Source: Escherichia phage OSYSP
Direction: 5' to 3' (one strand)
DNA: 64,000 nt
Sequence record: MF402939
Shown here: positions 6,072-62,753 of the stretch, one piece after another
Layout of the letters: each line of letters begins with the position of its first letter
Numbering within the stretch: position 1 is the stretch's first letter
Notes under the pieces: model-generated
The model's input: only the letters and a program-made list of their open reading frames with translations
Databases searched by the model: none
What the model was told of the DNA's origin: nothing
Position numbers and translations under genes: made by a program

Positions 6072-6082
6072 TTTATAAATGT

Positions 6083-48887: not shown

Positions 48888-48903
48888 ATTTCAACTTTAA
48901 TTA

Positions 48904-49680: not shown

Positions 49681-49718
49681 TGCCCGCTATTTATCAGCGG
49701 GCAATAATAAATCAACTA

Positions 49719-50111: not shown

Positions 50112-50149
50112 ATTTATAAAACTCCAATTAGTTTAATAATGGATTTAAT

Positions 50150-50407
50150 TTATTTGATAATAATCTGCATCTGGTACGGCGTTAATTCACCGTTTACGGG
50201 TAAATTATTATCGCTCAGCCACTCATAAAAAGCGTCATCGTCATCAAAAGGAACAATATCGTTATCACGGGAATCGACGGAAATAATACCATCCGTATTA
50301 GTTTTGGCGGCTAGGATAGGCCCGAAGCTGTAAACTTTATCAGATTCCATTTCATCCGGTGAAATGAATACTTTTTCGTCTAATGTTTTGGGAAGAGTAA
50401 CTTTCAT
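50150..50407 (-). CDS. Small strongly acidic protein (85 aa); DNA-mimic / anti-defence candidate
   Basis: Large excess of Asp/Glu over Lys/Arg, including a DDDD run. Confidence 0.45.
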   Translation of the reverse strand: MKVTLPKTLDEKVFISPDEMESDKVYSFGPILAAKTNTDGIISVDSRDNDIVPFDDDDAFYEWLSDNNLPVNGELTPYQMQIIIK

Positions 50408-50462
50408 TTAATTTAGCTCCTATAATAGCGGCTATATTTCAAGCCGCTAGGGTATTAATTAT

Positions 50463-52127
50463 TTACGCGAAAAATTTACCGTTTTTAAAGTCGATCAAAG
50501 TGCGCTGACCGTTTGCATAGGTAATAACATGCGTTTGCGTCCAGCTTGACGCGCCAACGTTGTAACCCATGTCCAGACTACCAGCTACGCCAGCGGTATA
50601 TACCCCGCCGTAAATGCTTGCCGTATGAGTATGCCCCGTGTTTAATTTGCCCAATTTCTTAAACTGTTTAGGATTGCCACGGCTGCCGTTAATGCCATTG
50701 TGACCGTGTACGCCGCACTCGATGCCTGCAATTTTAAATGATTGGTCAGTTGTTAGGAAAATGGCGTTAAATTCACAACCTGCAACCTTACGCAGCGCAT
50801 AATCAAGCACGTTGAAAGTATCGTCATGATCACCGATTGCCGCGTAAATTGCAGCATTTAGGCGGTGATATAGTTCCGCGTTTGCGGGATCGTCTTTAAT
50901 GTTAGCATTACGATCATCAAGCCAACGGGATAGCGCTAAATCGTGGTTTGATTCCACGATGATTGTTTGAGAAAAATCGCGCTCCATTGACTCCAGCACG
51001 CGCCCCGTATCGATGAGATCATCCAGAACCTTATCACGTCCGGCGGCGTATTGTTTTGCTAGGAATACACCCGAAGCGCGGTTGTGATGGTTGCGGGATG
51101 TAAAATCATGCACGTCATGAATAAACTGATATTTAGGCTTGAGAATATCAAGCAAGCTATTTTCGCCAGCCCATGACGCAACGGCGCAATCGTCATCTAA
51201 TTTTTCGGCGTGAATATCGCCATATTGCAAGCCTAAAACATGCCCCGATGTTTCATAACATCCGGCGGGAGTGGCGCAAATATTCAAATCGTAAAACACG
51301 CCGCTTTCGTCCATCGTTTCAAGCTGGCGAACAAAAAATTCTCCGTCTTCGTCAAACTCAACAACAAGCGCACCGAAATTATGCAGCGCCTCGGCCTTTT
51401 GTCCTGCTTTCTGCTGGATGTAATTTTTTAGGGTTGCCGTTCCAGTTGAATACATACGACGCACTACTTCACCTTTTAAAGCTGGCACGCTTTCGGCGGT
51501 AATTTTAGCGTGACCAATTGCCAGACCTTCCAGATTAAGCGCCGTTGCAGTTTCAGCGAATCCAGAAAGCGGATAATCTGCGGTTGGCAAAACGTTAATT
51601 TCAGCCATGAAAGCAAAACGGCGGTTATTTAAAAACACGTTTTTATTGCAGATATATTTGTCAAATGCGGAATCATATTTTATTCCTTCTGCACCCTCGC
51701 CATTTTGAAAACCGTTTTTGTTATAAATAAACTTGCTAACCAGCAAATCAGCGCCGATATATTTAGCAAATTGCTCCAGTGAGGCTAAAAAGTTTTTATG
51801 CGGGAAAGTATTATTCTGAATCGACGTAATAATAAAGCGTTTACCCTGCTTTACTTCCCATTGCTCAACCGTGCTAGAAACAATCCCCGCCGCTTCTGGA
51901 CGCTCATCGTTTTTAATGGCTTTTGCTACTTTCGCCGCTTTCGGTTTAGCTGGTTTATTTGCTTCCAACCAGTCGCAGATAGCGGTCGAGTGTTTTGTTG
52001 TATCGTAGACCGCTTTTGATATATCGTCGCAGACCTCCAGTTTAGTAGCGCGCAGACGTTTACCATAGAAATTAAAGTCAGCGGCCATTTTCAGGATAAC
52101 GGTTTGTTTTTCTGCGGAAATAATCAT
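50463..52127 (-). CDS. A1: A1-like pre-early protein with metallophosphoesterase domain (554 aa)
   Basis: Phosphoesterase motifs (GDIH, SNHD, GHNG, GHTH) in the C-terminal half; size close to T5 A1; adjacent to the A2-like and dmp-like genes. Confidence 0.65.
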   Translation of the reverse strand: MIISAEKQTVILKMAADFNFYGKRLRATKLEVCDDISKAVYDTTKHSTAICDWLEANKPAKPKAAKVAKAIKNDERPEAAGIVSSTVEQWEVKQGKRFIITSIQNNTFPHKNFLASLEQFAKYIGADLLVSKFIYNKNGFQNGEGAEGIKYDSAFDKYICNKNVFLNNRRFAFMAEINVLPTADYPLSGFAETATALNLEGLAIGHAKITAESVPALKGEVVRRMYSTGTATLKNYIQQKAGQKAEALHNFGALVVEFDEDGEFFVRQLETMDESGVFYDLNICATPAGCYETSGHVLGLQYGDIHAEKLDDDCAVASWAGENSLLDILKPKYQFIHDVHDFTSRNHHNRASGVFLAKQYAAGRDKVLDDLIDTGRVLESMERDFSQTIIVESNHDLALSRWLDDRNANIKDDPANAELYHRLNAAIYAAIGDHDDTFNVLDYALRKVAGCEFNAIFLTTDQSFKIAGIECGVHGHNGINGSRGNPKQFKKLGKLNTGHTHTASIYGGVYTAGVAGSLDMGYNVGASSWTQTHVITYANGQRTLIDFKNGKFFA

Positions 52128-52223
52128 ATTAATAAAACTCCATTAAAGGGATTAAAAACGTTTGTTATTGGCAAATATTGCCAAATATAACGCCTTGAAT
52201 AATAGGCGTTATAATTTGCAACA

Positions 52224-52421
52224 TTAATTTAAAGGCATAAGGCTAGAACTAACACCACAAGCAACGGCGGCAATAAAACAAATCAGACCTAAACGCTTTG
52301 CCAATTTAGACTTACGTTTAAAATAATATGAGTCTAAATCATTTTGAAAATAAGCGAATAATAACGAGGCCGCCATAATAAATAAGCCTAGAATGAGGGA
52401 TTCAGTAGGGTAAAAGATCAT
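52224..52421 (-). CDS. Small two-helix membrane protein (65 aa)
   Basis: ORF track; two hydrophobic segments. Confidence 0.4.
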   Translation of the reverse strand: MIFYPTESLILGLFIMAASLLFAYFQNDLDSYYFKRKSKLAKRLGLICFIAAVACGVSSSLMPLN

Positions 52422-52477
52422 TTTAAAACTCCAGTCAAAGGGAAATTATAGTGGGGAATATTCCCCACTAATTAAAT

Positions 52478-52885
52478 TTATTCGCCTGCGGCTTGTTTTA
52501 CTTCATCGGCAACGCCTAACAGTTGCGCCACGGCGTCCAGTGTTTCAAGTTTTGCACTTTCCAGACTTGCCAGATCATCGGCGTCTTTGATAATGCCGGA
52601 ATCAATAGCATGTTTAGCGATAACGCGTACATAGTGAGCTTTGCGGATTGAGCTACCGCCGCCAACTTTGCGCGGCTTATCGCTTTTCTGATACGCTTTC
52701 GCGCTGGTCAATTTTGACCGAACGGATACGGGAGAAGCCGCGCCCACTGCTTTTGCAATCTCTTTTAAACCGTAGCTATTTGCGAAATCTAAACCGTTTT
52801 CATTGATTAACTGCTGATACATGGAAACGGCTTTTTGGGTGTTTTCTTCATTCCAAGCAAATTTTGCGGTTTTAACGTTAGTCAT
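52478..52885 (-). CDS. A2: A2-like pre-early DNA-binding protein (135 aa)
   Basis: Size and position next to the A1-like gene; basic segment. Confidence 0.5.
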   Translation of the reverse strand: MTNVKTAKFAWNEENTQKAVSMYQQLINENGLDFANSYGLKEIAKAVGAASPVSVRSKLTSAKAYQKSDKPRKVGGGSSIRKAHYVRVIAKHAIDSGIIKDADDLASLESAKLETLDAVAQLLGVADEVKQAAGE

Positions 52886-52983
52886 GGTAAAAACTCCTAT
52901 TAGTTTAATTTAAGGGATAAGATTAACATAGTGTTAATCATTATATTCCCCATATTTCAGAGGAATATAAAGTTAACACTAAA

Positions 52984-53235
52984 TTATAACACAGCTTCCC
53001 ATTTTTCGTTACGCTGTACAACCTTTACAACGTCGCCGGATTTAACGCGAACGCTAAAAACGGTTTTGCCGTTGTTACTACGTTCATTTTCAGCGTATAC
53101 CGCGTCGATTGTATCAAACGGCATAAGCGCCGCACCTTTAATACGTTCGGCTTTTCCGGTTAGTTCATCCGTTTTAGTAACGAAAGGAATAAAAACGGAT
53201 TGACCAATTTTAGGCGCGGTAATAACGTTTTTCAT
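52984..53235 (-). CDS. Hypothetical pre-early protein (83 aa)
   Basis: ORF track. Confidence 0.45.
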   Translation of the reverse strand: MKNVITAPKIGQSVFIPFVTKTDELTGKAERIKGAALMPFDTIDAVYAENERSNNGKTVFSVRVKSGDVVKVVQRNEKWEAVL

Positions 53236-53462
53236 AATATAAACTCCTAGTTATTTGGGGATTGTTCCGCATTACCTGCTAGAAAGTAGCAGGTAATAAG
53301 CAACAATCCGCTCACCGCTATAATCAATTTAAAGAACTCCATGCAGGCCGCTATATCCCAGTTAGGGGGCGGGACACATTATGGTAAGTGCCGACCGTCA
53401 GATTTTATCAAGTTATCGCTCTTATCGAACTGAGTACATCTTAAAGCCTATCGGCTAGGTTG

Positions 53463-53666
53463 TCAAACAATTTTTTGCAGTTTTTTATAATTCTCTTTCA
53501 AGTCAATCATAATATTTCGCCAGATCATTTCTAAACCTTGCTGGCGGCCTTTCTTGTACTGCGTGAATCGGTATTTTACCGATCTTTGCGCTACTGTCAA
53601 CAAATTTTTTGTTTTGCTGTCCAGTGCCTTGCTAGGTTTACCAGTGATCAATAAAGTTTGTTTCAT
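53463..53666 (-). CDS. Small basic protein (67 aa), possibly DNA-binding
   Basis: ORF track; Lys/Arg-rich. Confidence 0.4.
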   Translation of the reverse strand: MKQTLLITGKPSKALDSKTKNLLTVAQRSVKYRFTQYKKGRQQGLEMIWRNIMIDLKENYKKLQKIV

Positions 53667-54091
53667 ATCTGCGATTCCTTATAATGTATAAGTTTACCGC
53701 CGATAGACTTTAAGATGTACCCAATTTTTAAAGAGCGCGGCGGTAAACTTCCCGCCGTGTAGTTCGTCATTGCCGCCCTACGAGATAAATAATAAGGGAT
53801 TCACAAAAATGGCGCAACCTTATTTTTGTAAAGAAACGTAAAGACAAATGCCACCGGACACCGTGCGGCGACCTGGGCGCGACGCACTAAAATTAAAAGA
53901 AACGGGCGCGCGAATACCACAAAACATAGCAGATAGGCAAGTAATTTTTTCATTTATATTTGCTTTGCCCTACTTGACAAAATCTAAAAAACTCGTGGTA
54001 GCGATAAACGAGGGTAGGCAATGCAATGGCATGGCTAAAAACTTCATCGCGTTCTAGGGCGTTTTAGGCGCATTCTAGCCTTGTTGATAAC

Positions 54092-54534
54092 TTATCCCCA
54101 GAAGCAAAAATGAAATTTTCCTAGTTATCCACTTGACTTTTATTTTCCAGTGGATAACTACTTATTTTATAAAATAAATTAATTGACTTTTATTTGTTAG
54201 TATGCGTCGGAAAGATAGCAGACTAATAATTGCTAGGATGATAATCATGCTGGTGGATTGTAACGGCTTAAATTATTAGCAGACTATTAATCACGGAAAA
54301 TCTCATTAGCCAACTAACTATTTCATGATATATAATATACTTATAAATTAAGGAGAAATAATAATTATAAGAAATAATAGCTACAGTAAATATTAACTAT
54401 AAGAAACTATCGGCCTAAGTGAGAACCACTATCATTTAAGTTATCCACAACGTTATCCACAGCACAAAATGATTTGACATAATAGGCGGTGATATAAGGA
54501 CTTTTACACAGACTTATCCACAGCTTATCCTACT
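54092..54534. promoter_or_regulatory. DnaA-box cluster in the divergent intergenic region (perfect TTATCCACA at 54441, 54453, 54514; variants at 54092, 54125, 54150 inverted, 54526)
   Basis: Direct match to the 9-mer DnaA box consensus. Confidence 0.7.
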
Positions 54535-54549
54535 GTATAAATATACAAG
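54508..54549 (+). repeat. Left arm of a 42-bp inverted repeat (ACAGACTTATCCACAG..TATCCTACTGTATAAATATACA), with DnaA box and -10-like TATAAAT
   Basis: Reverse complement of 58209-58250, identical except 2 central bases (hand-aligned). Confidence 0.8.
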
Positions 54550-54815
54550 GTAAAAAGGTAGTGTTAACAACTGCAATCAATTTTAAGCGGCCTAAAACGC
54601 TTTCTAACGAGCTAAATGCGGTGGGGTAATATTAAAGTAAAGTCTTCACCCGTCGCCCTGGTGGCTTCACTGTGTTTTGCTCTTTATTGCACCGCTGCGC
54701 GGTTAGCATAAAACTAGGCGCTAGGCAAGGAAAATAAAAAGGTAAAATAATATTTGCCCCTAGAAAGAAAATACCTTTATCATTCACTCACCGATTAACG
54801 AGGGAGGCCGAACAA

Positions 54816-55808
54816 ATGAGGCTTTATAAACCAGATAACGCAACCGTCTTAAAAGGTGCATTGCGCAACCTGCTGGATGGTAGCAGAACAACCAGCATTA
54901 AACATTTTGTTTTCAATATTGAAACACTTCATCGTAATTTTCTTGATGATTACGATGCTTATAATATGAATAGTTTTCTACCGTTATATAATCAAGGGGC
55001 AACGCTTGTTTTATATAATCAGGAATCTCACTTGCTTACTAGTCGAGGGCCAGATACTGATTTTATTATAGTGAAAGGCAGTACAGTAAAAGCCTATGAT
55101 GCGGGGGCGGGCTTAGAAGTTTTCACGATAGAAAATTATGAGCCTTATGATAAGGATCTTTATGACGTAGAAAATTTTCTCGATTCATTTTGGCGTTATT
55201 TATCAATTGGGTGGAATCGATCAGATTATCACGGGTATCGTTTTGCGGCTATAATGGCTTTTGATGATAACGGTAATTTTTTGCTACCGTCGGAATTATA
55301 CCCGTATGTATATAATGATTTAATAGAGGAGGCTGGTTTTACTTTCTGGAAAGATGAAGATCAGCCTATTGACAACACGGAAAAACATGCTGTAAATTCT
55401 AACACTCAAAGCGTTAACACTCAAACTACTGAAAATAAAGGGAAAAATACTATGACCAAGATCGCTAACATCGTTGCCGCTAATAAATCCGCTGTTGTAA
55501 ACGCTGCAAAACTGGAAGCGGGTAAAATTGCACTGACTCAAATCACGAAAGTAGCGGCTAAAAAACCGCCGTTTATTATCAAGGGTTATATTGATACGCC
55601 GATTGGTCGGGTAGTGATTGCCAACCTGCTGAGTGTAGCGGTTGACCAGTACGCCCCGAGTAACCAGAAAGCGAAAGCGGTAGCAGGAGCGGCTATGGAA
55701 GCGGCAATGCTAGAAATGGTGCAAAGTTTTAACATCGCTGAAATGATCGATGAAATGGTAAAAGGTATCGATATTTCTACTTTCACCGTTAACAACGAAA
55801 GCGAGTAA
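54816..55808 (+). CDS. Hypothetical pre-early protein (330 aa)
   Basis: ORF track; GGAGG Shine-Dalgarno upstream. Confidence 0.6.
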   Translation: MRLYKPDNATVLKGALRNLLDGSRTTSIKHFVFNIETLHRNFLDDYDAYNMNSFLPLYNQGATLVLYNQESHLLTSRGPDTDFIIVKGSTVKAYDAGAGLEVFTIENYEPYDKDLYDVENFLDSFWRYLSIGWNRSDYHGYRFAAIMAFDDNGNFLLPSELYPYVYNDLIEEAGFTFWKDEDQPIDNTEKHAVNSNTQSVNTQTTENKGKNTMTKIANIVAANKSAVVNAAKLEAGKIALTQITKVAAKKPPFIIKGYIDTPIGRVVIANLLSVAVDQYAPSNQKAKAVAGAAMEAAMLEMVQSFNIAEMIDEMVKGIDISTFTVNNESE

Positions 55809-55872
55809 TAATATTAAGCGGGGATTGTTACCCCGCTTTAATGTTCCCTTGTTAATTAATAGGAGGCTAATT

Positions 55873-56367
55873 ATGTCAGAAGAAAAATATGGCTTCTCAC
55901 TGGGAGAAGTGAGCACGGCTAAACACGATATGATCATTTTGGTCGATTGTCATACTGGCTATTGCGGAGAAGGCTGGACGGAGGAACATTTTGTTCCAGC
56001 TGGCTGTAATCTGGACGCTTTCGCTCAGGAAATGGCTGTTGATAATGCTTCTCGTTTCGGTAGCGATGGCTATGAAGACGAGGAAACTGGCGAATGGTAT
56101 GAAAATGAAAACGTATACGCTAGTCTTTATCATTATCAATTAAGTAAATCCGGCGCATATGTAAACGGCGGCGATCCTATTAATTCCATCATGAGATTAA
56201 TTATTAAACATGGTGGCGTCGAGATAATTGATAACAAAGCGGTAATATACGCAAACCGATTAAAACAGCTTGTTTATATTCCTGATAATACCCGATGGGA
56301 TGAATATGCTGTTTTGCATGACGAATTGAAACGATGTTTCAATATTGAATCCTTACAAGTAGTCTAA
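55873..56367 (+). CDS. Hypothetical acidic protein (about 164 aa, start at MSEEKYG)
   Basis: AGGAGG Shine-Dalgarno 6 nt before ATG at 55873. Confidence 0.55.
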   Translation: MSEEKYGFSLGEVSTAKHDMIILVDCHTGYCGEGWTEEHFVPAGCNLDAFAQEMAVDNASRFGSDGYEDEETGEWYENENVYASLYHYQLSKSGAYVNGGDPINSIMRLIIKHGGVEIIDNKAVIYANRLKQLVYIPDNTRWDEYAVLHDELKRCFNIESLQVV

Positions 56368-56472
56368 TGTAAAGTTTTGTAAAGGTCGCCTTTTATGGTG
56401 GCCTTTTTTGTTATAATGCTTTTACACCAAAACGGTGGATTGAAAATTTTCCCAAAAATTTGGAGGCTTAAA

Positions 56473-56703
56473 ATGGTTGCATACTCTTCTGCTAGTCATC
56501 TGTTTACCGCGCAAGGCTGGGTATCTAATCGCGTCATCATTCATGAAATGGTGCAGGAGTTCGGCATTGCTAAAACTTACACTACCATTCAGGAACTATA
56601 CAACGCCGATAAAATCGATCAGCAAACGGCTGGCTTTTTGCTGGATACCCTGAAGGCGGAACATTGCACCAAAAAACAAGCCGCTAAAATTGTTTTAATG
56701 TAA
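56473..56703 (+). CDS. Hypothetical protein (about 76 aa, start at MVAYSS)
   Basis: GGAGG Shine-Dalgarno before ATG at 56473. Confidence 0.5.
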   Translation: MVAYSSASHLFTAQGWVSNRVIIHEMVQEFGIAKTYTTIQELYNADKIDQQTAGFLLDTLKAEHCTKKQAAKIVLM

Positions 56704-56749
56704 TTAATAACGGGGCGTTATTTTCGCCCCGCTAACTAGGAGAATGAAA

Positions 56750-56899
56750 ATGGTTATTTTTCGAGCTATTCTGGCAGGTATCTTGGGCGCTATTTTATCG
56801 TTGTTTGCAATAGCTTTCGGTGTTCACGCCGTTATTGTCGGCGCGGGTATCGCCGTTTTTTCTTATCTGCTGGGCTGCATGATTAGTAAAGGAGAATAA
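56750..56899 (+). CDS. Unannotated hydrophobic micro-protein (49 aa, MVIFRAILAGILGAILSLFAIAFGVHAVIVGAGIAVFSYLLGCMISKGE)
   Basis: Hand translation; AGGAG Shine-Dalgarno; stop lies 2 nt before the next ATG. Confidence 0.5.
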   Translation: MVIFRAILAGILGAILSLFAIAFGVHAVIVGAGIAVFSYLLGCMISKGE

Positions 56900-56901
56900 A
56901 A

Positions 56902-57114
56902 ATGATCCGCAACGTTTCTCTTGCTCGTTCGAAAGGCTTTAAGCTGGTGGACGTTAACACGTTCGAGCGTGAAGATTGTAAAATCGAATATGTAGCGCGG
57001 AATAAAAACGCCTTTCGTGTTACCGAGAAAAAATTCGATAAGCGCGGCAACGTGGTCGCTGAAACGGTTAAACATTTTGCCACCTTTTACGCTGCGTTTC
57101 GTGGGGTACTATGA
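56902..57114 (+). CDS. Hypothetical basic protein (70 aa)
   Basis: ORF track. Confidence 0.5.
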   Translation: MIRNVSLARSKGFKLVDVNTFEREDCKIEYVARNKNAFRVTEKKFDKRGNVVAETVKHFATFYAAFRGVL

Positions 57115-57236
57115 AAAGCGTTATCATTATTAGCCTTGCAATGGTTGGCGGTTTTACCGCCACCTTATTTAAAAATGATCCCCTTTTACTGGGGATTTTT
57201 ATGCTTTTATCTGGCTATCTGATTGGGAGGTTATAA
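57111..57236 (+). CDS. Unannotated hydrophobic micro-protein (41 aa, MKSVIIISLAMVGGFTATLFKNDPLLLGIFMLLSGYLIGRL)
   Basis: Hand translation; ATGA start/stop overlap with the upstream gene. Confidence 0.5.
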   Translation: MKSVIIISLAMVGGFTATLFKNDPLLLGIFMLLSGYLIGRL

Positions 57237-57237
57237 A

Positions 57238-57582
57238 ATGGTAATTTATGAAGGCAATCGTTTTGTTGCTAATTGCCGTCCTGCATTGCTAGCAAATTAC
57301 TTAAATCAGCTTTCACCAGCTTATAAGGGCGTTATTAATATTTATGAGGGCAAAGTGCATTATAAGGTTAATGCGGTCGTTGCCCGTGAACTAGCGTTTC
57401 AATTTTTGACCTTTGCATCTTGTGACGTTCAGGTTATGGGTGAGGCGTTAATTGCAGAAAATGAAGATGATTTTATTAACATTTTTCGCAAGATATGCAC
57501 CGAGCGCCTGATCATGAAAGGCGCTTATATTCAATCCACTGCGGATAGTATTGAAACAGCGTTTCGAAAGGTGGCGCAATGA
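57238..57582 (+). CDS. Hypothetical protein (about 114 aa, start at MVIYEG)
   Basis: GGGAGG Shine-Dalgarno before ATG at 57238. Confidence 0.5.
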   Translation: MVIYEGNRFVANCRPALLANYLNQLSPAYKGVINIYEGKVHYKVNAVVARELAFQFLTFASCDVQVMGEALIAENEDDFINIFRKICTERLIMKGAYIQSTADSIETAFRKVAQ

Positions 57583-57737
57583 AAAAGTTTTTAATAGCTG
57601 GCATGTTTCCGTTGTTGCCTTATGTAATTTGCTGGGCTTTATATGCTCATGGTGCTAGTGTTCCCGGTGTGGCTTCATTTGGTGTATCGGCGGGCTTTCT
57701 AGCTGGACTATTGGCAAGCGTATATTTACGCAAATAA
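57579..57737 (+). CDS. Unannotated hydrophobic micro-protein (52 aa, MKKFLIAGMFPLLPYVICWALYAHGASVPGVASFGVSAGFLAGLLASVYLRK)
   Basis: Hand translation; ATGA overlap with the upstream gene. Confidence 0.5.
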   Translation: MKKFLIAGMFPLLPYVICWALYAHGASVPGVASFGVSAGFLAGLLASVYLRK

Positions 57738-57756
57738 TTAATAACGGAGCGTTATT

Positions 57757-57951
57757 ATGAGCAATAAAATTGTTGTAACCAAAATCAGTACAATGGTTGA
57801 TGTTTTTTACGTGCCCGATACGCCGGAGAATCGGCGAGCGGTCGAGCGTGGCGAGTATGATAAAGTGATTTATGATCACGATGGTTACTATCAACATTTG
57901 GTGGATTCCTACGGGGAGGAGGAAAAAATCACGCATCGACTACCAGACTAA
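57757..57951 (+). CDS. Small acidic protein (64 aa)
   Basis: ORF track. Confidence 0.5.
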   Translation: MSNKIVVTKISTMVDVFYVPDTPENRRAVERGEYDKVIYDHDGYYQHLVDSYGEEEKITHRLPD

Positions 57952-57992
57952 TAATCACGGGGCGCAACTACCAGGGAGTGCCCCCAATTCTC

Positions 57993-58087
57993 AAATGAGA
58001 ATCATTCTCATTTGACTGCGCCCGCGATGGTTAGCCTGCTAATGATTAGGGTGTTACGTGTCGCCTTGTGTGATCGTTAGCAGGCTA
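57993..58087. repeat. Palindromic elements: AAATGAGAATCATTCTCATTT and a 12-bp inverted pair TTAGCCTGCTAA / TTAGCAGGCTAA
   Basis: Read from the sequence; related motifs occur at 48812-48853. Confidence 0.7.
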
Positions 58088-58208
58088 ACTAATTTTTAAG
58101 CCTCCTCCAATTTTGCCCTTGTTTTAGTACCCCCACCAAAATTAAACGCGTTAGAATGCGATCTAGGACGTTTTAGCGGTATACTAGAATTATTCACTAC
58201 ATAGGAAT

Positions 58209-58250
58209 ACTGTATATTTATACAGTAGGATATCCTGTGGATAAGTCTGT
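58209..58250 (-). repeat. Right arm of the 42-bp inverted repeat (reverse orientation), includes DnaA box TGTGGATAA at 58236; a second box at 58309
   Basis: Hand-computed reverse complement matches 54508-54549. Confidence 0.8.
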
Positions 58251-58334
58251 TAATAACGCCTCAAAATGGCTAGGATTCTGTCAAATCAAATCGTGCTGTT
58301 AATAAGTCTGTGGATAACTTAAATAACAGTGTTT

Positions 58335-58510
58335 CTCACTTCCATTCTTAAATGAGAATCATTATCATTCGCAGTCCACTGTCTAACCGATAATCATTTC
58401 CTTTCTTAAATGAGAATCATTTCACTTTTTGAATAGTTCTCATTTCCTTTCTTAAATGAGAATAATTATCATTCGCATTCCACTTCTTAAATGATAATGA
58501 TTCTCATTCA
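58335..58510. repeat. Cluster of at least 4 copies of TTCTTAAATGAGAAT(C/A)ATT in direct and inverted orientation
   Basis: Read from the sequence. Confidence 0.75.
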
Positions 58511-58515
58511 AAGTC

Positions 58516-58533
58516 GCAGGGCAATTGCCCTGC
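58516..58533. repeat. Perfect 18-bp palindrome GCAGGGCAATTGCCCTGC
   Basis: Self-complementary by inspection. Confidence 0.85.
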
Positions 58534-58538
58534 GCTTT

Positions 58539-59141
58539 TGTGCAAATCCGACATTGCTCCACGGGTGTTACGTGCGGGCATGTATGTGCGAATCCGACAA
58601 TTTTTGGTAGTGTGCGAATCCGACCCTAAAAACTTTTGTGATGTGCGAATCCAACAATGAATTTTCCCAAAAACTCCAGCAATCACGAACTGCGTTCGAA
58701 TCCTGTGGGATATGTGCAAATCCGACACGGTTTTTCTAGGATTAAGATGTGCAAATCCGACAAGATTTTTGTGACTTCGATGAGAGGGTGTGTGATTGTA
58801 TAGGTTTGAGGAGAAGATGAGAGAGCGAGAAAAGTTTGGGAGGCTAGAAGGATGCGGGCGCAGGATTGGTGCGGAGCACCTGATTTGCGGGGATTTTGGG
58901 GAAGAGTTGAGATAATTTGGGAAGATTTGAGATAGGTGCAGAAAAAGTAAAATTTTATTAGCAAAATGGGGCAAAATAGCTTGACAAGTGAAAATTTCTG
59001 TGGCTCTAAAAACTCAGGCAATCATGGGCCTTCGGCCCGAAATAATGCTGCCATTTTCAAGAGATTATATGTTCCTAAAAACTTAGGCGTTTGTGCAAAT
59101 CCGACCATAAATTTCTAGGAACACAATGTACAAATCCGACA
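58539..59141 (+). repeat. Iteron-like array: 8 same-orientation copies of 15-bp TGTGC(G/A)AATCCGAC(A/C) at 58539, 58585, 58611, 58642, 58713, 58748, 59092, 59127
   Basis: Direct repeats located by hand; copy 4 carries CCAACA and copy 8 TGTACA variants. Confidence 0.8.
58790..58945. repeat. Purine-rich (G/A) strand-asymmetric tract with short GAGATA / TTGGG repeats
   Basis: Read from the sequence. Confidence 0.6.
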
Positions 59142-59169
59142 GTAATTTCTGGAAATGTGTTTTCAAAAA

Positions 59170-59240
59170 ATGTCTCCTAGAAATAACCGCCCTCCCTATA
59201 ACCGCCCTGTATTAACCGCCCTGTATTAACCGCCTATTGC
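59170..59240. repeat. Short tandem repeats (A/T)TAACCGCC(CT), 4 copies, flanked by TTCTAGGAA / TTCCTAGAA inverted motifs
   Basis: Read from the sequence. Confidence 0.65.
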
Positions 59241-59662
59241 TAGAGTTTCTAGGAATATGAAAACCGCCTGAGTTGACTAGAGAAACAGATTTAAAGTTTA
59301 ATGTAAACTCTAGAGTTAGTGCTCAACTATTCCTAGAAACTTAGGAGTCTAGAAGAAAGTGTTGTGCCATCCTAGCAGATGAGCGGCAACAGGTGTATCA
59401 TCTTGAACACAAATATTGCCTTTAAATATTTTTAGTTATTTAAAAGTAAATATACCCCCATTTCATGAGAGCTTACTCGTGGGGCGCGTGAGTATTACGG
59501 AAGACTTAGTAATTAGATCTATACTCGTGCTGTCGCAACGTATAGACGTAATACTAAGTGTAATAATCATCGCCCCTAGAGTTCAAAACAAGAGTTGTTT
59601 TTAATCTATGAGATTATTATAACATGTGCCGCAATGAGTTGTCAAGAAGATTTTGTTAATGT

Positions 59663-60019
59663 TTATACATCTCCTTCGAAATTGGTATTGGGATCGTAAA
59701 TCTTTTTGGCTCCTGTATTTAATAGGAATCGTTCTGCAAGTTGTGGGTGAATATCAAAGAACTCTGTACATCCTTCGAATCCCTTTAAATTACAGCGGTA
59801 TTTCTTAAAGTAGATATGAGCAGCGGCTTCTAGATCTCTAGGGTTATGGGTTTCATAGATTCCATACACATATAAATCGTCAAAACCTCGATAGACTATC
59901 TTATCTAAGTTTAGAGTTTGAATCCTATTATGTGGATTCATGCTAATACCGATCTTTGTTCTCTTAGGGATCTTTGTCAGATCCCTGTTCGCAAGAATAT
60001 ATACTTTATATAGTGACAT
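59663..60019 (-). CDS. T5orf172 / GIY-YIG-like domain protein (118 aa)
   Basis: Pattern VYILAN ... KIGIS.NP..R resembles the T5orf172 (GIY-YIG superfamily) signature. Confidence 0.45.
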   Translation of the reverse strand: MSLYKVYILANRDLTKIPKRTKIGISMNPHNRIQTLNLDKIVYRGFDDLYVYGIYETHNPRDLEAAAHIYFKKYRCNLKGFEGCTEFFDIHPQLAERFLLNTGAKKIYDPNTNFEGDV

Positions 60020-60737
60020 TCTTTCTAGCCTTTAGATAGATTCCTTTAGATGCTAAATAAATATATGTAGCAAGGAATGAAGATGTAGATCCTGTTTCTT
60101 CAAGAGTAATAGATCCCTTTGCATAACGCTTGGTTCTAGGAGCCTGGTTAAGCACAAGCGCAGTGAGACTACCTAATCCTAGAGCATCCATTAGACGTTT
60201 GAAGGAGTCCTTTTCATCATGGATAGCGTATAGGATATAATCTTCCGCTGTAGTAAGTTCTATGTCACGATGATGTGCCACTGCAATCCGTGCTACTACA
60301 GCTCCAATCGTTCTATAAATATCTTCAAACGTGATACTAGTTTCAAATGCTAACGCTGGAAGATGATCGAACTTACATTTCTTAGGCGGAATGTATAATT
60401 GTTCTGGATATGCTTCTAATGCTTCTCTAGCGGATGTTTCTCTATAAGCCGGGAGAGGTTCATCAATGATAACATGGATATAGTTTCCCATGTGACCTTT
60501 AGCAGTGGGGTCTAAAGACTTGAGGAGTTTATTCATATCAACGTAAGAATAAGCAAGGTCGGCTTTTGCTGCTTTGTTATCATACTTAATCTTACCACCC
60601 TCCCATCTAGCTGGGAACATTTCGCAAACAAACATTACTGCATGTTTCTCTTCAGTGGTTAAATCAGAGAAACAGCGATGATCAGCCCCCTTAGCGAGGG
60701 CTAGAATATTCTTAAACTTTACAGCCAAATCTTTCAT
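60006..60737 (-). CDS. Hypothetical early protein (243 aa)
   Basis: ORF track; coupled to neighbours. Confidence 0.55.
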   Translation of the reverse strand: MKDLAVKFKNILALAKGADHRCFSDLTTEEKHAVMFVCEMFPARWEGGKIKYDNKAAKADLAYSYVDMNKLLKSLDPTAKGHMGNYIHVIIDEPLPAYRETSAREALEAYPEQLYIPPKKCKFDHLPALAFETSITFEDIYRTIGAVVARIAVAHHRDIELTTAEDYILYAIHDEKDSFKRLMDALGLGSLTALVLNQAPRTKRYAKGSITLEETGSTSSFLATYIYLASKGIYLKARKNVTI

Positions 60738-61357
60738 TAATTACCTCTCTTATCTTCATTAATGACAGCTCCCAACGCTTCCATAATTGCATCTTCTAAA
60801 CTTCCATGTTTACTAGGATTATTAAAATGAATAGTACAAACAGAACCCCTAGAAACTCCAGCATCCGCAGGTGCTACGCTTCGCATATCAGATTCAAAAG
60901 CTTCTTGGGTATGTTGCAACTGTACAGAAGGGCCGTAATCTTCACCAAACTTATATGACTTCGTACTACTTACCACACCCCCACAAGGAACATTGTGCAT
61001 ATCCGACATTAATCTTTTATCGGAGTTATTCAGCATTGAGATTGTCCCTGACTGCCATGGATCTCTAATAGTCACTGGAGTACTAGGGCGGTTCACCTCA
61101 GTCTTCACAAGTTTGTACCCTGCATCGATTAGTGCATTAATCAGGTTATCCGCCGGGATGCGAGCCGTACCAAAAATCTTACGAGCGTTGTTGAGCCTAC
61201 CTTCAAAATCTTTACATGCTTTAATATTAGTGTGTGCAAAGGTTAGCTTCATAGATTTGAACTGTACAGTGGCAGTTAAATCTTTAAAGCTATAATCCCA
61301 CGTATTCAGTTCATGATCTGGTACTACTTGAATAGATTGTTGTGCATATAAAGTCAT
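60737..61357 (-). CDS. Hypothetical early protein (206 aa)
   Basis: ORF track. Confidence 0.55.
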   Translation of the reverse strand: MTLYAQQSIQVVPDHELNTWDYSFKDLTATVQFKSMKLTFAHTNIKACKDFEGRLNNARKIFGTARIPADNLINALIDAGYKLVKTEVNRPSTPVTIRDPWQSGTISMLNNSDKRLMSDMHNVPCGGVVSSTKSYKFGEDYGPSVQLQHTQEAFESDMRSVAPADAGVSRGSVCTIHFNNPSKHGSLEDAIMEALGAVINEDKRGN

Positions 61358-61542
61358 TATTTATTCCCCAGTTTGTCTAACAGCTTATGAGCTGCTAGAT
61401 TATATTGTTTAAGTTCACGATTAAGAATTTGGTTCTCACACTTTAACTCTAAATTCTTATTATTAAGAATATTGCAGATTAGTAGAAGTGCTAGTATAAC
61501 TAGCAGAGAACCTACGAGCATTAAAAGAAAAAGAGTTTCCAT
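61357..61542 (-). CDS. Small membrane protein (transmembrane helix plus coiled coil, 61 aa)
   Basis: ORF track; hydrophobic N-terminus. Confidence 0.45.
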   Translation of the reverse strand: METLFLLMLVGSLLVILALLLICNILNNKNLELKCENQILNRELKQYNLAAHKLLDKLGNK

Positions 61543-61775
61543 TATTTAACTCCCATGTAACGTTTGAGATATATGATGAAGTCTTCTGCTGTATGCTCTA
61601 CGCTACCTTGAGCTACAAATAGCTTGAGGGCTTCACGTTGTAGTTTAAGAGCAGCCAACTCACCACGTAATTTTATTAGATCTTCTGCTAGTTCTCTAGC
61701 TCTACGCATAATAGCAAAAGATACAAGTACTACGATGAATAACATAACTACTAAAATAATTGCTATGATTTCCAT
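61542..61775 (-). CDS. Small membrane protein (transmembrane helix plus coiled coil, 77 aa)
   Basis: ORF track. Confidence 0.45.
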   Translation of the reverse strand: MEIIAIILVVMLFIVVLVSFAIMRRARELAEDLIKLRGELAALKLQREALKLFVAQGSVEHTAEDFIIYLKRYMGVK

Positions 61776-62053
61776 ATTAACATCCAGCTTTTATCACACA
61801 TTTGGGCATGATCTATCAGTTCATTCATTGATGTATTGTTATCATAAATGCACTCTAGTATATACCTTCTGTCAAATTCGTCAACCAAATATTCTACATT
61901 ATTTATTACTACTTTATACAGATCTGGGACTAGAGAGCATGTATTTGGTATGGGGCGACTGCTTAAGTCTATTTCATTATAGCCCCATGTTGTTTTAAAT
62001 AGTTTGTTACTAAGTGCTGCTAATGGATTTGACCATATAATATAGCTACTCAC
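61763..62053 (-). CDS. Hypothetical protein (96 aa)
   Basis: ORF track. Confidence 0.4.
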   Translation of the reverse strand: MSSYIIWSNPLAALSNKLFKTTWGYNEIDLSSRPIPNTCSLVPDLYKVVINNVEYLVDEFDRRYILECIYDNNTSMNELIDHAQMCDKSWMLIWKS

Positions 62054-62492
62054 TATTTATCTCCATTCTTAACTTTGAAAACTTATTATACCAAACTATA
62101 TGATTATCGTCAATTACAAATTTATGATAACATGCTGGTACGGTATAAGTTCCATAATCCGTGACACGCTGCACAACCTTGTGTACACACAGTCGACAAC
62201 CATGCCCTTCTAAATGAGATCTAGCAGTCTGCCAGTAATAACCATCATGATCTGGACAATAAATCTCGACTTGTTGCTGCATTGTTTTATAATTTACACG
62301 CTCATACCCAAAGAAAGCTCCATGAGCTGCAACGGCTTTCTTGATAAATATAAGGTTTAGTGCTTCTTGTTGAAAGTCGGGGTGTAGCTGCTTAATCTTA
62401 GTTCTATTAATAGACCCATCCGATTTTACGAATCTATTTATAGGGAAGTTGTTAGCTTCCTCGATTAATAATTCATTTACTTTTTCTCTCAT
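62046..62492 (-). CDS. Hypothetical Cys/His-containing protein (start taken at MREKVNELL)
   Basis: ORF track (62046..62594), trimmed to an internal ATG that removes the overlap with the upstream gene. Confidence 0.4.
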   Translation of the reverse strand: MREKVNELLIEEANNFPINRFVKSDGSINRTKIKQLHPDFQQEALNLIFIKKAVAAHGAFFGYERVNYKTMQQQVEIYCPDHDGYYWQTARSHLEGHGCRLCVHKVVQRVTDYGTYTVPACYHKFVIDDNHIVWYNKFSKLRMEINSE

Positions 62493-62493
62493 A

Positions 62494-62697: not shown

Positions 62698-62753
62698 TTG
62701 AAGTTCCTTGAAAACACAAAAGGCCAGAACAATTAAGTCCTGGCCTCCTAAAA

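What the first reader, a model, noticed from the sequence alone, without database searches (positions are those of the whole stretch)
54508..58250. A 42-bp inverted repeat pair with DnaA boxes flanks a 3.7-kb plus-strand operon
Positions 54508-54549 and the reverse complement of 58209-58250 are identical at 40 of 42 positions (ACAGACTTATCCACAG-NN-TATCCTACTGTATAAATATACA). Each arm carries a perfect DnaA box and a -10-like TATAAAT. Between the arms lies only the plus-strand operon 54816-57951, nine tightly coupled small ORFs with no recognisable function. The left arm is placed to act as a DnaA-modulated sense promoter; the right arm, in opposite orientation, would fire antisense into the operon. 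Alternatively the arms could bound an invertible or mobile cassette, or form part of a replication/injection control locus. No recombinase lies inside, so inversion would need a factor encoded elsewhere.
Basis: seen in the sequence. Interest (0 to 1): 0.8.

Follow-up and report, generated by a model that had tools for sequence, protein, structure and literature searches.

The report
Known T5 injection-stop inverted repeats
The repeat pair is real, but it is the already published pair of 131-bp DnaA-box inverted repeats (IRC-spacer-IRD and IRD'-spacer-IRC') in the first-injected end of T5-like phage genomes; what I add is that each copy also ends in a near-perfect host LexA (SOS) operator and that the gene block between the copies has flipped once in evolution.

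Summary
The window is a T5-like phage (Tequintavirus). Positions about 48.8-59.0 kb are its terminal repeat, the first-step-transfer DNA.

**The observation.** The reported 42-bp inverted repeat exists: 38/40 identical, or 38/42 at the stated coordinates. It is only the inner part of a 131-bp inverted repeat, 54417-54547 versus 58211-58341, 78% identical. This is the published IRC-spacer-IRD / IRD'-spacer-IRC' pair. It carries eight DnaA-type boxes in pairs 3 bp apart. The right copy opens the non-coding injection-stop (iss) region.

- The sense/antisense promoter reading is not supported. No conserved inward promoter lies in either arm in 24 genomes, and the T5-annotated gene-011 promoter maps about 200 bp downstream of the left arm.
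- A programmed inversion switch is not supported: 0 of 542 phage records carry the inverted junction, and there is no recombinase.

**New here.**
- The "TATAAAT" is the centre of a CTGT-N8-ACAG palindrome, 19/20 identical to the E. coli tisB LexA operator. It is conserved as far as Serratia, Klebsiella, Vibrio and Pectobacterium relatives.
- The cassette is inverted between the same arms in Klebsiella and Pectobacterium phages.
- A published viable T5 deletion removes the left arm.

**Most likely function.** The arms are landing pads for host proteins on incoming DNA. This is inferred and remains experimentally untested.

The parts
54417..54547 (+). Left 131-bp arm, equal to T5 'IRC-spacer-IRD' (Repeat Region 2). 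It lies between the leftward pre-early genes (A2 side) and the rightward 011 block.
   Evidence: the repeat finder I1+I2. It is 102/131 identical to the reverse complement of the right arm. It aligns to T5 AY543070 6098-6228. Described in Davison 2020.
58211..58341 (-). Right 131-bp arm, equal to T5 "IRD'-spacer-IRC'" (Repeat Region 3). It is the first element of the non-coding injection-stop (iss) region.
   Evidence: It aligns to T5 9412-9542, inside the feature annotated 'injection stop signal' 9140-10149. It is present in 534 phage records.
54441..54461 (+). Left arm, DnaA-box pair 1: TTATCCACA, 3 bp, TTATCCACA.
   Evidence: The first box is TTATCCACA in 20/24 genomes; the second box is more variable.
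54502..54522 (+). Left arm, DnaA-box pair 2: TTTTACACA, 3 bp, TTATCCACA.
58297..58317 (-). Right arm, DnaA-box pair 1: TTATCCACA (58309-58317) and the variant TTATTAACA (58297-58305).
58236..58256 (-). Right arm, DnaA-box pair 2: the variant TTATTAACA (58248-58256) and TTATCCACA (58236-58244).
54474..54479 (+). Nearly invariant TTGACA in the spacer of the left arm. Its mirror copy in the right arm is at 58279-58284 (minus strand). No conserved -10 lies at promoter distance.
   Evidence: TTGACA in 22/24 left arms and 24/24 right arms. Column conservation is 0.99 / 1.0. The promoter scan finds nothing conserved there.
54531..54550 (.). Left-arm SOS-box-like palindrome TACTGTATAAATATACAAGG. It is weakened in this phage (ACAG to ACAA); 19 of 24 relatives keep CTGT-N8-ACAG.
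   Evidence: Second-best LexA score in the 64-kb window (index 7.29). Variants are listed.
58208..58227 (.). Right-arm SOS-box-like palindrome TACTGTATATTTATACAGTA. It matches the consensus TACTG(TA)5CAGTA (own knowledge) at 19/20 and the tisB LexA operator at 19/20.
   Evidence: Best score in the window (index 0.85, better than all 25 training operators). CTGT-N8-ACAG match. Index at most 2.8 in 24/24 genomes and kept in distant genera. The tisB operator sequence comes from PMC3159453.
54816..57951 (+). Cassette of nine plus-strand pre-early ORFs, homologues of T5.011-T5.017 plus extras: 54816-55808, 55825-56367, 56395-56703, 56744-56899, 56902-57114, 57111-57236, 57223-57582, 57579-57737, 57757-57951.
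   Evidence: The T5 homologues 011, 013 and 015 are toxic in E. coli and dispensable for T5.
54754..54783 (+). Promoter-like site TTGCCC-18-TATCAT with an A-rich upstream stretch. It is the likely promoter of the cassette (T5 'P11').
   Evidence: It aligns with the AY543070 promoter feature 6411-6489. It is conserved in 17/24 genomes. A promoter upstream of 011 is reported.
58030..58095 (+). Long hairpin (17-nt arms) followed by a T-run. It is the terminator of the cassette and lies before the right arm.
   Evidence: the repeat finder I20. It corresponds to the T5 annotated terminator 9275-9296.
58333..59150 (.). iss-type direct repeats outside the right arm. The DRE-like repeats (58336-58511) contain Fur-box-like arrays. 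The DRD-like TGTGCAAATCCGAC repeats span 58534-59105.
   Evidence: the repeat finder families D1-D5. Davison 2020 gives the nomenclature. Fur-like scan.

Best explanation
**What it is (shown).** The two arms are the 131-bp inverted repeats IRC-spacer-IRD and IRD'-spacer-IRC' that all T5-like phages carry in their terminal repeat. This is the DNA that enters the cell first.

**What each arm contains.** Each arm is best read as a composite landing pad for host DNA-binding proteins that are already present in the uninfected cell. From outer to inner end it holds:
- a conserved AGTGAGAA motif;
- two tandem DnaA boxes;
- a nearly invariant TTGACA;
- two more tandem DnaA boxes;
- a near-consensus LexA operator at the inner end.

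**How it most likely works (inferred).** As the DNA enters, DnaA, and probably LexA, load on these sites and build a nucleoprotein complex at the border of the injection-stop region. The right arm is the important copy. It sits at the start of the non-coding iss region, just inside the point where transfer pauses. The left arm is an older duplicate that can assist, for example by bridging through DnaA oligomers and looping out the 3-4 kb cassette, but it is dispensable. The complex would take part in the pause of DNA transfer, as in Davison's membrane-DnaA anchoring model, and/or insulate the pre-early transcription units.

**What it is not.** The arms are not the promoter of the cassette and not a programmed inversion switch. 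They have, however, served at least once as endpoints of an evolutionary inversion of the cassette.

**Status of each step.** Shown: identity with the known repeats, site content, conservation, absence of inversion among close relatives, and the ancient inversion. Inferred: actual binding of DnaA and LexA, and any role in injection stop.
For: **Identity**
- The region is 88-94% identical to terminal repeats of T5-like phages.
- The arms align to T5 6098-6228 and 9412-9542. The latter lies inside the annotated iss.
- Length (131 bp), box pairs 3 bp apart and eight boxes match the published description.

**Site content**
- All five perfect DnaA boxes of the window lie in the arms; 0.6 are expected.
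- The two best LexA-like sites of the window are at the inner ends of the arms. The right one is 19/20 to the tisB operator.

**Selection on the sites**
- Left and right arms are about 77% identical both within a genome and between genomes. Orthologous arms are 87% (left-left) and 93% (right-right) identical. The copies therefore evolve independently, and what they share is kept by selection.
- Column conservation (left / right arm) is highest in the LexA box (0.97 / 0.96), TTGACA (0.99 / 1.0), AGTGAGAA (0.97 / 1.0) and DnaA boxes 1 and 4. Other arm columns score 0.86 / 0.94.
- The LexA-like box next to a DnaA box survives in Serratia, Klebsiella and Pectobacterium relatives at both arms, and in the Vibrio relative at one. 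The surrounding DNA there is otherwise unalignable.
- The composite DnaA-box-N10-CTGT-N8-ACAG occurs in 47 stretches of the 2.9 million IMG/VR contigs. Those I could identify by contig name are T5-like genomes of 100-125 kb. Three shorter metagenome contigs were not inspected.

**Right arm primary**
- The right arm is the more conserved copy.
- The published T5 hegG-017 deletion, by my mapping of its primers, removes about 5394-9160. That includes the whole left arm but keeps the right arm. The mutant is viable with small plaques.
- Davison reports lineages that lack the left copy.

**Not a switch**
- 0 of 542 records carry the synthetic inverted junction, against 155 with the native one.

**Ancient inversion**
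- Homologues of 011, p180, p119 and p64 are in reversed order and on the opposite strand between the same arms in Klebsiella and Pectobacterium phages.
Against: - No binding of DnaA or LexA to these sites has been shown. A 2023 paper states that experimental studies of their role are lacking.
- Proteins bound to DNA that is already inside the cell do not obviously stop the DNA behind it. Protein binding could just as well ratchet DNA inward.
- T5 is generally taken to grow on recA hosts (own knowledge). LexA cleavage therefore cannot be required for resumption.
- The left arm's LexA box is degraded in this very phage and in 4 of the other 23 genomes.
- The palindrome could instead be the site of a phage protein, for example A2, which binds DNA.
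- My LexA scoring matrix was built from operator sequences recalled from memory.
- I could not read Wang 2005, Heusterspreute 1987 or Davison 2015. I therefore cannot exclude that the SOS box has been noted before.
Confidence: 0.6

Rival explanations
1. First reader's main reading. The inner part of each arm is a sigma-70 promoter pointing into the cassette, with a DnaA box over the -35 and TATAAAT as the -10. The left arm drives the operon. The right arm fires antisense.
For: - TATAAA is a 5/6 match to the -10 consensus.
- TTATCC lies 16 bp upstream (sequence).
- An operator overlapping a -10 is the usual layout of SOS-regulated promoters (own knowledge).
Against: - No inward promoter-like site is conserved inside either arm in 24 genomes.
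- The hexamer lacks -7T, or -11A in the other register.
- The T5 record places the 011 promoter about 200 bp further down, at the conserved TTGCCC-18-TATCAT.
- In Klebsiella and Pectobacterium phages the operon is inverted and starts far from either arm.
- In 7 of 24 right arms the palindrome centre is flipped (AA to TT) with no other change. That fits a symmetric operator better than a directional -10.
Confidence: 0.1
2. Outward-facing, LexA-repressed promoters. The -10 is TATATT inside the SOS box, read from the cassette side, with the -35 in the inner flank. From the left arm this would feed the leftward A2/A1 operon. From the right arm it would read toward iss. The DnaA boxes would act as downstream roadblocks. 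Pre-early expression would then be tied to the host's SOS and replication state.
For: - TTAACA-16-TATATT (10/12) lies at 54567-54540 on the minus strand.
- A promoter-like site with its -10 at this position is present in 21/24 left arms; TTAACA-16-TATATT itself is present in 15.
- The SOS box covers the -10 to the start site, the classical operator position.
- DnaA and LexA jointly regulate at least one host promoter region, uvrB (abstract of PMC6015884).
Against: - The right-arm counterpart is weak (TATTCA-16-TATATT, 8/12, 15/24 genomes).
- The -35 is not conserved in T5 itself.
- The characterised leftward promoters PH22 and PD/E20 lie elsewhere.
- There are no transcript data.
- The left arm is dispensable.
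Confidence: 0.15
3. Programmed invertible cassette. The arms are recombination sites of a switch that flips the 3.7-kb block during the phage life cycle.
For: - Inverted repeats flank a gene block.
- Both orientations exist in nature across genera.
- In Klebsiella phages the inner flanks match the T5-type flanks crosswise somewhat better than straight.
Against: - 0 of 542 related records carry the inverted junction, against 155 with the native junction.
- All 24 distinct Tequinta/Epseptima-type loci have one orientation.
- There is no recombinase in or near the cassette.
- The arms are only 77% identical and show no concerted evolution, which frequent exchange would produce.
Confidence: 0.03
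4. DnaA-dependent replication origin or a DnaA-titration element in the terminal repeat.
For: Eight clustered DnaA-type boxes, arranged in the same orientation within each arm, are reminiscent of oriC or datA.
Against: - T5 origins were mapped near the genome centre, and replication genes are not yet in the cell during the first step (Davison 2020).
- I did not look for an AT-rich unwinding element.
- Eight boxes per infecting genome are few beside the host's own high-affinity boxes (own knowledge).
Confidence: 0.03
5. Terminal inverted repeats of a mobile element that carries the nine ORFs.
For: Inverted repeats bound a block of variable accessory genes whose length ranges from 2.8 to 4.1 kb.
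Against: - There is no transposase.
- The arms are always at the same genomic position, in 534 records.
- The arms are conserved while the content between them varies by gene-level insertions and deletions.
- The composite motif is found in viral contigs only in the 47 stretches. Those I identified by contig name are T5-like genomes; three shorter metagenome contigs were not inspected.
Confidence: 0.02

Closest known systems
T5 FST inverted repeats IRC-spacer-IRD (Repeat Region 2) and IRD'-spacer-IRC' (Repeat Region 3, iss). Davison 2020 (bioRxiv 10.1101/866236) attributes them to Heusterspreute et al. 1987, Wang et al. 2005 and Davison 2015; I read only the 2020 preprint.
   Same: It is the same element:
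- 131-bp units in inverted orientation;
- eight DnaA/DnaA* boxes in pairs 3 bp apart;
- the same positions relative to A2, gene 011 and the iss repeats;
- direct sequence homology to the T5 copies.
   Different: Nothing essential. This phage has 6 consensus and 2 variant boxes, where T5 is reported to have 7 boxes in all. Its arms are 3663 bp apart, against 3184 bp in T5.
E. coli LexA operators (SOS boxes), for example the tisB operator TACTGTATAAATAAACAGTA used for LexA binding studies (PMC3159453)
   Same: - It is a 20-bp palindrome, CTGT-N8-ACAG, with an AT-rich centre.
- The right-arm box is 19/20 to tisB and 19/20 to the textbook consensus.
- It scores better than all 25 host operators used for my matrix.
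   Different: - LexA binding has not been shown.
- It does not demonstrably overlap a promoter.
- It sits in a virulent phage, where an SOS-controlled function is unexpected.
- The left copy is partly degraded in this phage.
DnaA-box clusters of oriC, datA and DARS
   Same: High-affinity TTATCCACA boxes are clustered and arranged in the same orientation within a unit. Davison noted the resemblance.
   Different: - The boxes stand in 12-bp start-to-start pairs, 61 bp apart.
- There are two mirror-image units 3-4 kb apart.
- No unwinding element has been identified.
- The T5 origins lie elsewhere.
Invertible segments bounded by inverted repeats (Mu G, P1 C, Salmonella Hin)
   Same: Inverted repeats bound a gene block, and both orientations are found in related genomes.
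   Different: - There is no adjacent site-specific recombinase.
- The orientation is fixed within Tequintavirus and Epseptimavirus.
- The arms are 131 bp and 77% identical, not short crossover sites.
uvrB promoter region of E. coli, regulated by both DnaA and LexA (PMC6015884, abstract seen)
   Same: DnaA boxes and LexA boxes occur together in one control region.
   Different: That is a host promoter with mapped starts. Here no promoter has been shown, and the layout is a mirrored pair.

Membership tests
T5-type FST inverted repeats (IRC-spacer-IRD / IRD'-spacer-IRC') | Two units of about 131 bp in inverted orientation within the terminal repeat | tested here: met
   54417-54547 and 58211-58341, 102/131 identical without gaps. 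The region maps to T5 terminal-repeat coordinates.
T5-type FST inverted repeats (IRC-spacer-IRD / IRD'-spacer-IRC') | Eight DnaA or DnaA-variant boxes, in pairs separated by 3 bp, two pairs per unit | tested here: met
   Left arm: 54441/54453 and 54502/54514. Right arm: 58309/58297 and 58248/58236. Six are consensus boxes and two are TTATTAACA.
T5-type FST inverted repeats (IRC-spacer-IRD / IRD'-spacer-IRC') | Position: one unit between the leftward A2-side genes and gene 011, the other at the start of the non-coding iss repeats | tested here: met
   A2 homologue at 52478-52885 (-) and 011 homologue at 54816 (+). DRE/DRD-type repeats start at 58333.
T5-type FST inverted repeats (IRC-spacer-IRD / IRD'-spacer-IRC') | Sequence homology to the T5 copies | tested here: met
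   The window's left arm is 82% identical to the T5 left arm (6098-6227) and 74% to the reverse complement of the T5 right arm (9412-9542). The window's right arm is 91% identical to the T5 right arm (9396-9544) (H74).
T5-type FST inverted repeats (IRC-spacer-IRD / IRD'-spacer-IRC') | Constant 52-bp spacer between IRC and IRD | tested here: inconclusive
   I did not have the published IRC/IRD boundaries. The total length (131 bp) and the 61-bp distance between box pairs are constant, and 48 arm sequences align without gaps. This is consistent with the feature.
Injection stop signal (iss) of T5 | Cis-acting site at which DNA transfer pauses at about 8% of the genome | not testable with these tools
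   Only position can be checked. The right arm lies within the stretch homologous to the T5 feature annotated iss. No experiment has assigned the stop to the arm.
LexA operator (SOS box) | 20-bp palindrome CTGT-N8-ACAG close to TACTG(TA)5CAGTA | tested here: met
   58208-58227 matches at 19/20. 54531-54550 has one half-site change.
LexA operator (SOS box) | Bound by LexA, with the target gene derepressed on SOS induction | not testable with these tools
   There are no binding or expression data. No paper in the library links T5 and LexA boxes.
LexA operator (SOS box) | Overlaps or adjoins a promoter | tested here: inconclusive
   Only an outward promoter-like site overlaps the box, at the left arm (21/24 genomes; TTAACA-16-TATATT in 15). 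The right-arm counterpart is weak.
   None is conserved in the inward direction inside either arm in 24 genomes.
Site-specific invertible segment | A recombinase gene next to or inside the segment | tested here: not met
   The nine ORFs hit only DUF7566 and PHROGs of unknown function or the nickase. None is a recombinase.
Site-specific invertible segment | Both orientations among close relatives or within a stock | tested here: not met
   0 of 542 records hold the inverted junction. Both orientations exist only between distant genera. Within-stock heterogeneity is not testable here.
DnaA-dependent replication origin | DnaA-box cluster plus an AT-rich unwinding element at a mapped initiation site | not tested
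   The boxes are present. I did not search for an unwinding element. The literature places the T5 origins near the genome centre.

The most novel reading that the evidence does not exclude
Each arm is a composite landing pad for two host regulators, DnaA and LexA. Fur-box-like arrays lie in the repeats just outside the right arm. LexA has not been considered in T5 biology in any text I could read. On this reading it binds the first-injected DNA at both borders of the cassette. It then either forms part of the nucleoprotein complex at the injection-stop region or ties the pre-early programme to the host's SOS state. The T5 pause site would then be a cluster of high-affinity sites for several pre-existing host repressors, not a DnaA-only device.
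Probability: 0.3. Interest if true: 0.65.

Novelty: already known. Interest (0 to 1): 0.3.

Why it matters
What stops T5 DNA transfer at 8% of the genome, without any protein synthesis, has been an open question since the 1960s. These repeats are the main published candidate. As handed over, the finding adds nothing to that literature. The follow-up gives three usable points.

- **A near-consensus LexA operator.** It is conserved across the family at the inner end of each repeat. This makes a second host factor directly testable, by EMSA and by lexA(Def) or lexA(Ind-) hosts.
- **Independent evolution of the arms.** The two arms evolve independently, and the left one is removed in a viable T5 mutant. 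Models that need both arms, such as a "Gordian knot" or loop, cannot be essential.
- **Cassette orientation is free.** The cassette has been inverted between the arms in Klebsiella and Pectobacterium phages. The arms therefore work independently of the orientation of the genes between them and are not their promoter.

Tried and rejected
- **Rfam scan of 48.0-60.5 kb.** It was run at E up to 1. The only hits were two sub-threshold chance matches, so there is no known RNA family in the arms or in the conserved 270-nt leader.
- **tRNA scan.** None found in the window.
- **Concerted evolution of the arms.** Rejected. Left-right identity is 77.0% within a genome and 76.6% between genomes.
- **Programmed inversion.** Rejected with a synthetic inverted-junction query (0 of 542 records) against a native-junction control (155 records).
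- **Extension of the repeat.** Inward, there is a 43-nt stretch at the same offset in both flanks, with score 29 against shuffles of 17.7 +/- 2.4 and one shuffle equal. This is real but weak. Outward, nothing exceeds chance.
- **Inner-flank comparison to locate the inversion endpoints.** It is only weakly informative, because both inner flanks share a degenerate motif.
- **Exact position of the 'P11' start in Klimuk 2020.** It is not given in the text or in the held supplement.
- **Davison 2015 (PMC4743489).** Not held. I did not attempt to retrieve Wang 2005 or Heusterspreute 1987. What I say about those three papers comes from Davison 2020.
- **Which T5 protein is the Ung-dependent nickase.** RefSeq labels T5.014 (70 aa), while the papers call it 015. 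This is left unresolved.
- **A search of bacterial genomes for the composite motif.** Not run, because about 70 chance matches would be expected for 17 specified bases.

Full report
**Where we are**

The region of the finding is 88-94% identical to hundreds of T5-like phages; the best hit is Escherichia phage vB_EcoS_EASG3 at 93.7%. In complete linear records it falls at about 5.5-9.7 kb, inside the annotated left terminal repeat. A local BLAST against T5 (AY543070) maps T5 positions 105-10608 onto window positions 48885-59407.
- The 554-aa and 135-aa minus-strand ORFs are A1 and A2.
- The plus-strand block is T5.011-T5.017.
- The stretch from 58116 onward is the region T5 annotates as the injection stop signal.
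- The 5 kb before the repeat (44.0-48.9 kb) is the terminase and receptor-binding end of the late region.

The source is therefore an assembly with the terminal repeat collapsed or circularly permuted.

**Checking the observation**

The repeat is real.
- At the stated coordinates 38 of 42 positions match. Over the true repeat, 54508-54547 versus 58211-58250, 38 of 40 match.
- It is only the inner third of a longer inverted repeat. The repeat finder reports 54417-54483 / 58275-58341 (67 nt, 82%) and 54497-54547 / 58211-58261.
- Together these give two 131-bp arms that are 102/131 identical without gaps.
- Each arm holds four DnaA-type boxes in two tandem pairs, 12 bp start to start, with the pairs 61 bp apart and all in one orientation.
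- All five perfect TTATCCACA of the 64-kb window lie in the arms. Chance gives 0.60, and no shuffle of 100 reaches five.

The nine plus-strand ORFs are there. All belong to PHROG families. ORF1 is Pfam DUF7566. The 70-aa ORF is the homologue of the T5 protein that RefSeq labels as the Ung-dependent abasic-site nickase.

**It is a known element**

Davison (bioRxiv 10.1101/866236) describes the same structure in T5 and 24 relatives.
- A 131-bp IRC-spacer-IRD lies in Repeat Region 2, and its inverted copy IRD'-spacer-IRC' opens Repeat Region 3, the iss region.
- Almost all of these phages have eight DnaA or variant boxes, always in pairs 3 bp apart.
- The distance between the arms is variable.
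- Some lineages have a partly or wholly missing left copy.
- He proposes that membrane-bound DnaA binds these boxes and stops DNA transfer.

He traces the DnaA box to a 1987 paper and the IRC/IRD names to the 2005 genome paper. A 2023 paper on BF23 repeats the description and states that experiments on their role are lacking.

**Comparative analysis**

A protein-anchored search of IMG/VR gave 29 loci. With T5 and EASG3, these make 24 distinct genomes including the window.
- Every one has exactly one left arm in plus orientation upstream of the 011 homologue and one right arm in minus orientation, 2.8-4.1 kb apart. A2 is always on the minus strand to the left.
- The right arm alone is found in 534 phage records.
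- Arm identities are 86.6% for left versus left between genomes and 93.3% for right versus right.
- Left versus right is 77.0% within a genome and 76.6% between genomes.

The two copies are therefore old, they evolve independently without gene conversion, and the right copy is under the tighter constraint. The two arms differ from each other in the second half of the spacer.

**The inner end is an SOS box**

The "-10-like TATAAAT" is the centre of TACTGTATAAATATACAG(TA), which is CTGT-N8-ACAG.
- The right-arm copy (58208-58227) differs at one of 20 positions from the textbook LexA consensus TACTG(TA)5CAGTA (own knowledge).
- It also differs at one position from the tisB operator used for LexA binding studies (PMC3159453).
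- I built a heterology-type index from 25 host operators recalled from memory. The right-arm site scores 0.85, better than every training site (range 2.06-11.7). The left-arm site scores 7.29. These are the two best sites in the window.
- All 24 right arms score 2.8 or better.
- 19 of 24 left arms keep both half-sites. This window's left copy has ACAA instead of ACAG.
- In 7 right arms the asymmetric centre is flipped (AA to TT), which is neutral for a symmetric dimer site.
- In Serratia, Klebsiella and Pectobacterium relatives, where the surrounding DNA is barely alignable, both arms keep a strong box a fixed distance from a DnaA box. In the Vibrio relative only the iss-side arm clearly does; the other candidate scores 10.7 and has a different geometry.
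- The composite DnaA-box-N10-CTGT-N8-ACAG occurs in 47 stretches of IMG/VR. Those I identified by contig name are T5-like genomes; three shorter metagenome contigs were not inspected.
- Column conservation (left / right arm) is highest in the LexA box (0.97 / 0.96), TTGACA (0.99 / 1.0), an AGTGAGAA motif (0.97 / 1.0) and DnaA boxes 1 and 4.

Neither "LexA" nor "SOS" occurs in Davison 2020. No paper in the library connects T5 with LexA boxes. I could not read the older subscription papers.

**Promoter reading**

A scan of 24 genomes in register finds no conserved inward sigma-70-like site inside either arm.
- The conserved inward sites lie 204 and 236 bp beyond the left arm. In the window the second is TTGCCC-18-TATCAT at 54754-54783. 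It aligns with the promoter feature that the T5 record places directly before T5.011.
- T5 papers list a characterised pre-early promoter upstream of 011, called P11.
- A long hairpin plus T-run at 58030-58095 ends the block before the right arm.
- The only promoter-like site that uses the palindrome points outward: TTAACA-16-TATATT on the minus strand at 54567-54540. A promoter-like site at that position is found in 21 of 24 left arms (TTAACA-16-TATATT itself in 15). Its right-arm counterpart is weak. I keep this as a rival.

**Inversion**

A synthetic query joined the left flank and left arm to the reverse complement of the right inner flank. It found no record with at least 80% coverage among 542 hits. 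The native junction found 155. There is no recombinase. A programmed switch is therefore very unlikely.

In Klebsiella phage vB_Kpn24-P2, in two further Klebsiella-type contigs and in Pectobacterium phage DU_PP_V, the picture differs.
- The homologues of 011, p180, p119 and (in DU_PP_V) p64 lie between the same two arms.
- They are in reversed order and on the same strand as A2/A1.
- Serratia phage Kamaji keeps the T5 arrangement.
- The arms keep their geometry, with the SOS boxes innermost.
- In the Klebsiella phages the inner flanks match the T5-type flanks somewhat better crosswise than straight.

This is the signature of at least one evolutionary inversion with endpoints in or at the arms. 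It also shows that the arms function regardless of the orientation of the genes between them.

**Is the pair needed?**

A 2026 preprint built T5 mutants lacking hegG to 017; they are viable with small plaques. I mapped its deletion primers onto AY543070. The junction primers lie at 5361-5389 and 9161, and the outer right primer lies inside the right arm. The deletion therefore removes about 5394-9160. That includes the whole left arm (6098-6228) and P11, and it keeps the right arm (9412-9542). Together with Davison's lineages that lack the left copy, this means the left arm and any obligatory arm-to-arm interaction are dispensable in the laboratory.

**Mechanism, as far as it can be argued**

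The pause in transfer happens without protein synthesis. It must therefore rely on the DNA and on factors already present. The right arm is a dense, strongly conserved set of near-consensus sites for DnaA and LexA, placed at the start of the non-coding iss region. The repeats just outside it contain overlapping Fur-box-like arrays.
- The window has 27 hits with at most 5 mismatches, against 5.6 +/- 2.7 in shuffles.
- 22 of 24 genomes have a hit within 300 nt outside the right arm, against a background of 0.44 per 300 nt.

I therefore favour reading the arms as landing pads for host proteins. These would build a nucleoprotein complex on the entering DNA, with the right arm as the working copy. 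This extends Davison's DnaA model rather than replacing it. The weak points are stated under evidence against:
- no binding data exist;
- there is no obvious physical reason why proteins on DNA already inside should stop the DNA behind it;
- LexA cleavage cannot be required if T5 grows on recA hosts (own knowledge).

**Verdict**

Its "injection control locus" alternative is the published view, and its inversion idea holds only on an evolutionary scale. The SOS box, the ancient inversion and the dispensability of the left arm are the points worth carrying forward.

Noticed in passing
window 58348-58372, 58452-58476, 58487-58511, 57991-58009; also 48814-48832 and 49008-49032: Fur-box-like arrays match GATAATGATAATCATTATC with 3-5 mismatches, often as two sites overlapping at a 6-nt shift. 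They sit in the DRE-type repeats just outside the right arm and near the left end of the terminal repeat. The window has 27 hits against 5.6 +/- 2.7 in shuffles. 22 of 24 relatives have a hit within 300 nt outside the right arm, against a background of 0.44 per 300 nt. Fur is not mentioned in Davison 2020. T5's receptor FhuA is Fur-regulated (own knowledge)..
   Followed up: partly
L080 7001-10720 (Klebsiella phage vB_Kpn24-P2); L082 7930-12770 (Pectobacterium phage DU_PP_V); also L083-L086: The cassette between the two arms is inverted relative to T5. Homologues of 011, p180, p119 and p64 are in reversed order and on the A2/A1 strand. Serratia phage Kamaji (L079) keeps the T5 orientation..
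   Followed up: yes
window 54548-54815: The 270-nt non-coding leader between the left arm and ORF1 is very strongly conserved, largely invariant between this phage, T5 and EASG3. It contains one arm (54590-54616) of a further inverted repeat whose partner is at 54043-54069. A 43-nt stretch resembles the right inner flank at the same offset from the arm. There is no Rfam match..
   Followed up: partly
window 54122-54160: A small hairpin-type inverted repeat, TAGTTATCCAC...GTGGATAACTA, carries two 8/9 DnaA-box-like sequences facing each other, with TTGACT between them. It lies about 260 bp left of the left arm and is probably one of the Repeat Region 1 elements.
   Followed up: no
window 58534-59105: Six or more copies of TGTGC(A/G)AATCCGAC at irregular spacing fill the rest of the non-coding iss region, up to about the end of the terminal repeat (about 59020 by alignment to T5). 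They correspond to the DRD repeats. No function is known..
   Followed up: no
window 44000-48900 and 59400-64000: The terminase and receptor-binding end of the late region abuts the terminal repeat directly, and the repeat then runs into early genes. The source sequence is therefore a collapsed-repeat or circularly permuted assembly, not the packaged linear genome..
   Followed up: partly
window 56902-57114 and 57223-57582; L087 2087-2645: There is a naming conflict. RefSeq and PHROGs attach 'endonuclease nicking abasic sites generated by host Ung' to the 70-aa protein (T5.014, PHROG 4227). The papers call the nickase T5.015 / Gp015, which in AY543070 is the neighbouring 114-aa ORF (PHROG 4379, unknown function)..
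   Followed up: partly
window 55825-56367: This ORF (PHROG 6741, 164-aa core) has no counterpart in T5 at this position but is present in EASG3 and, distantly, in the Klebsiella, Pectobacterium and Serratia relatives. The cassette content varies by whole genes while the arms stay fixed..
   Followed up: partly
right arms of 24 genomes (alignment columns 124-143); window 58208-58227: The SOS-box palindrome occurs in two forms that are reverse complements of each other (centre AA or TT): 12 and 7 exact copies among the right arms. The perfectly symmetric TA centre was never seen..
   Followed up: no
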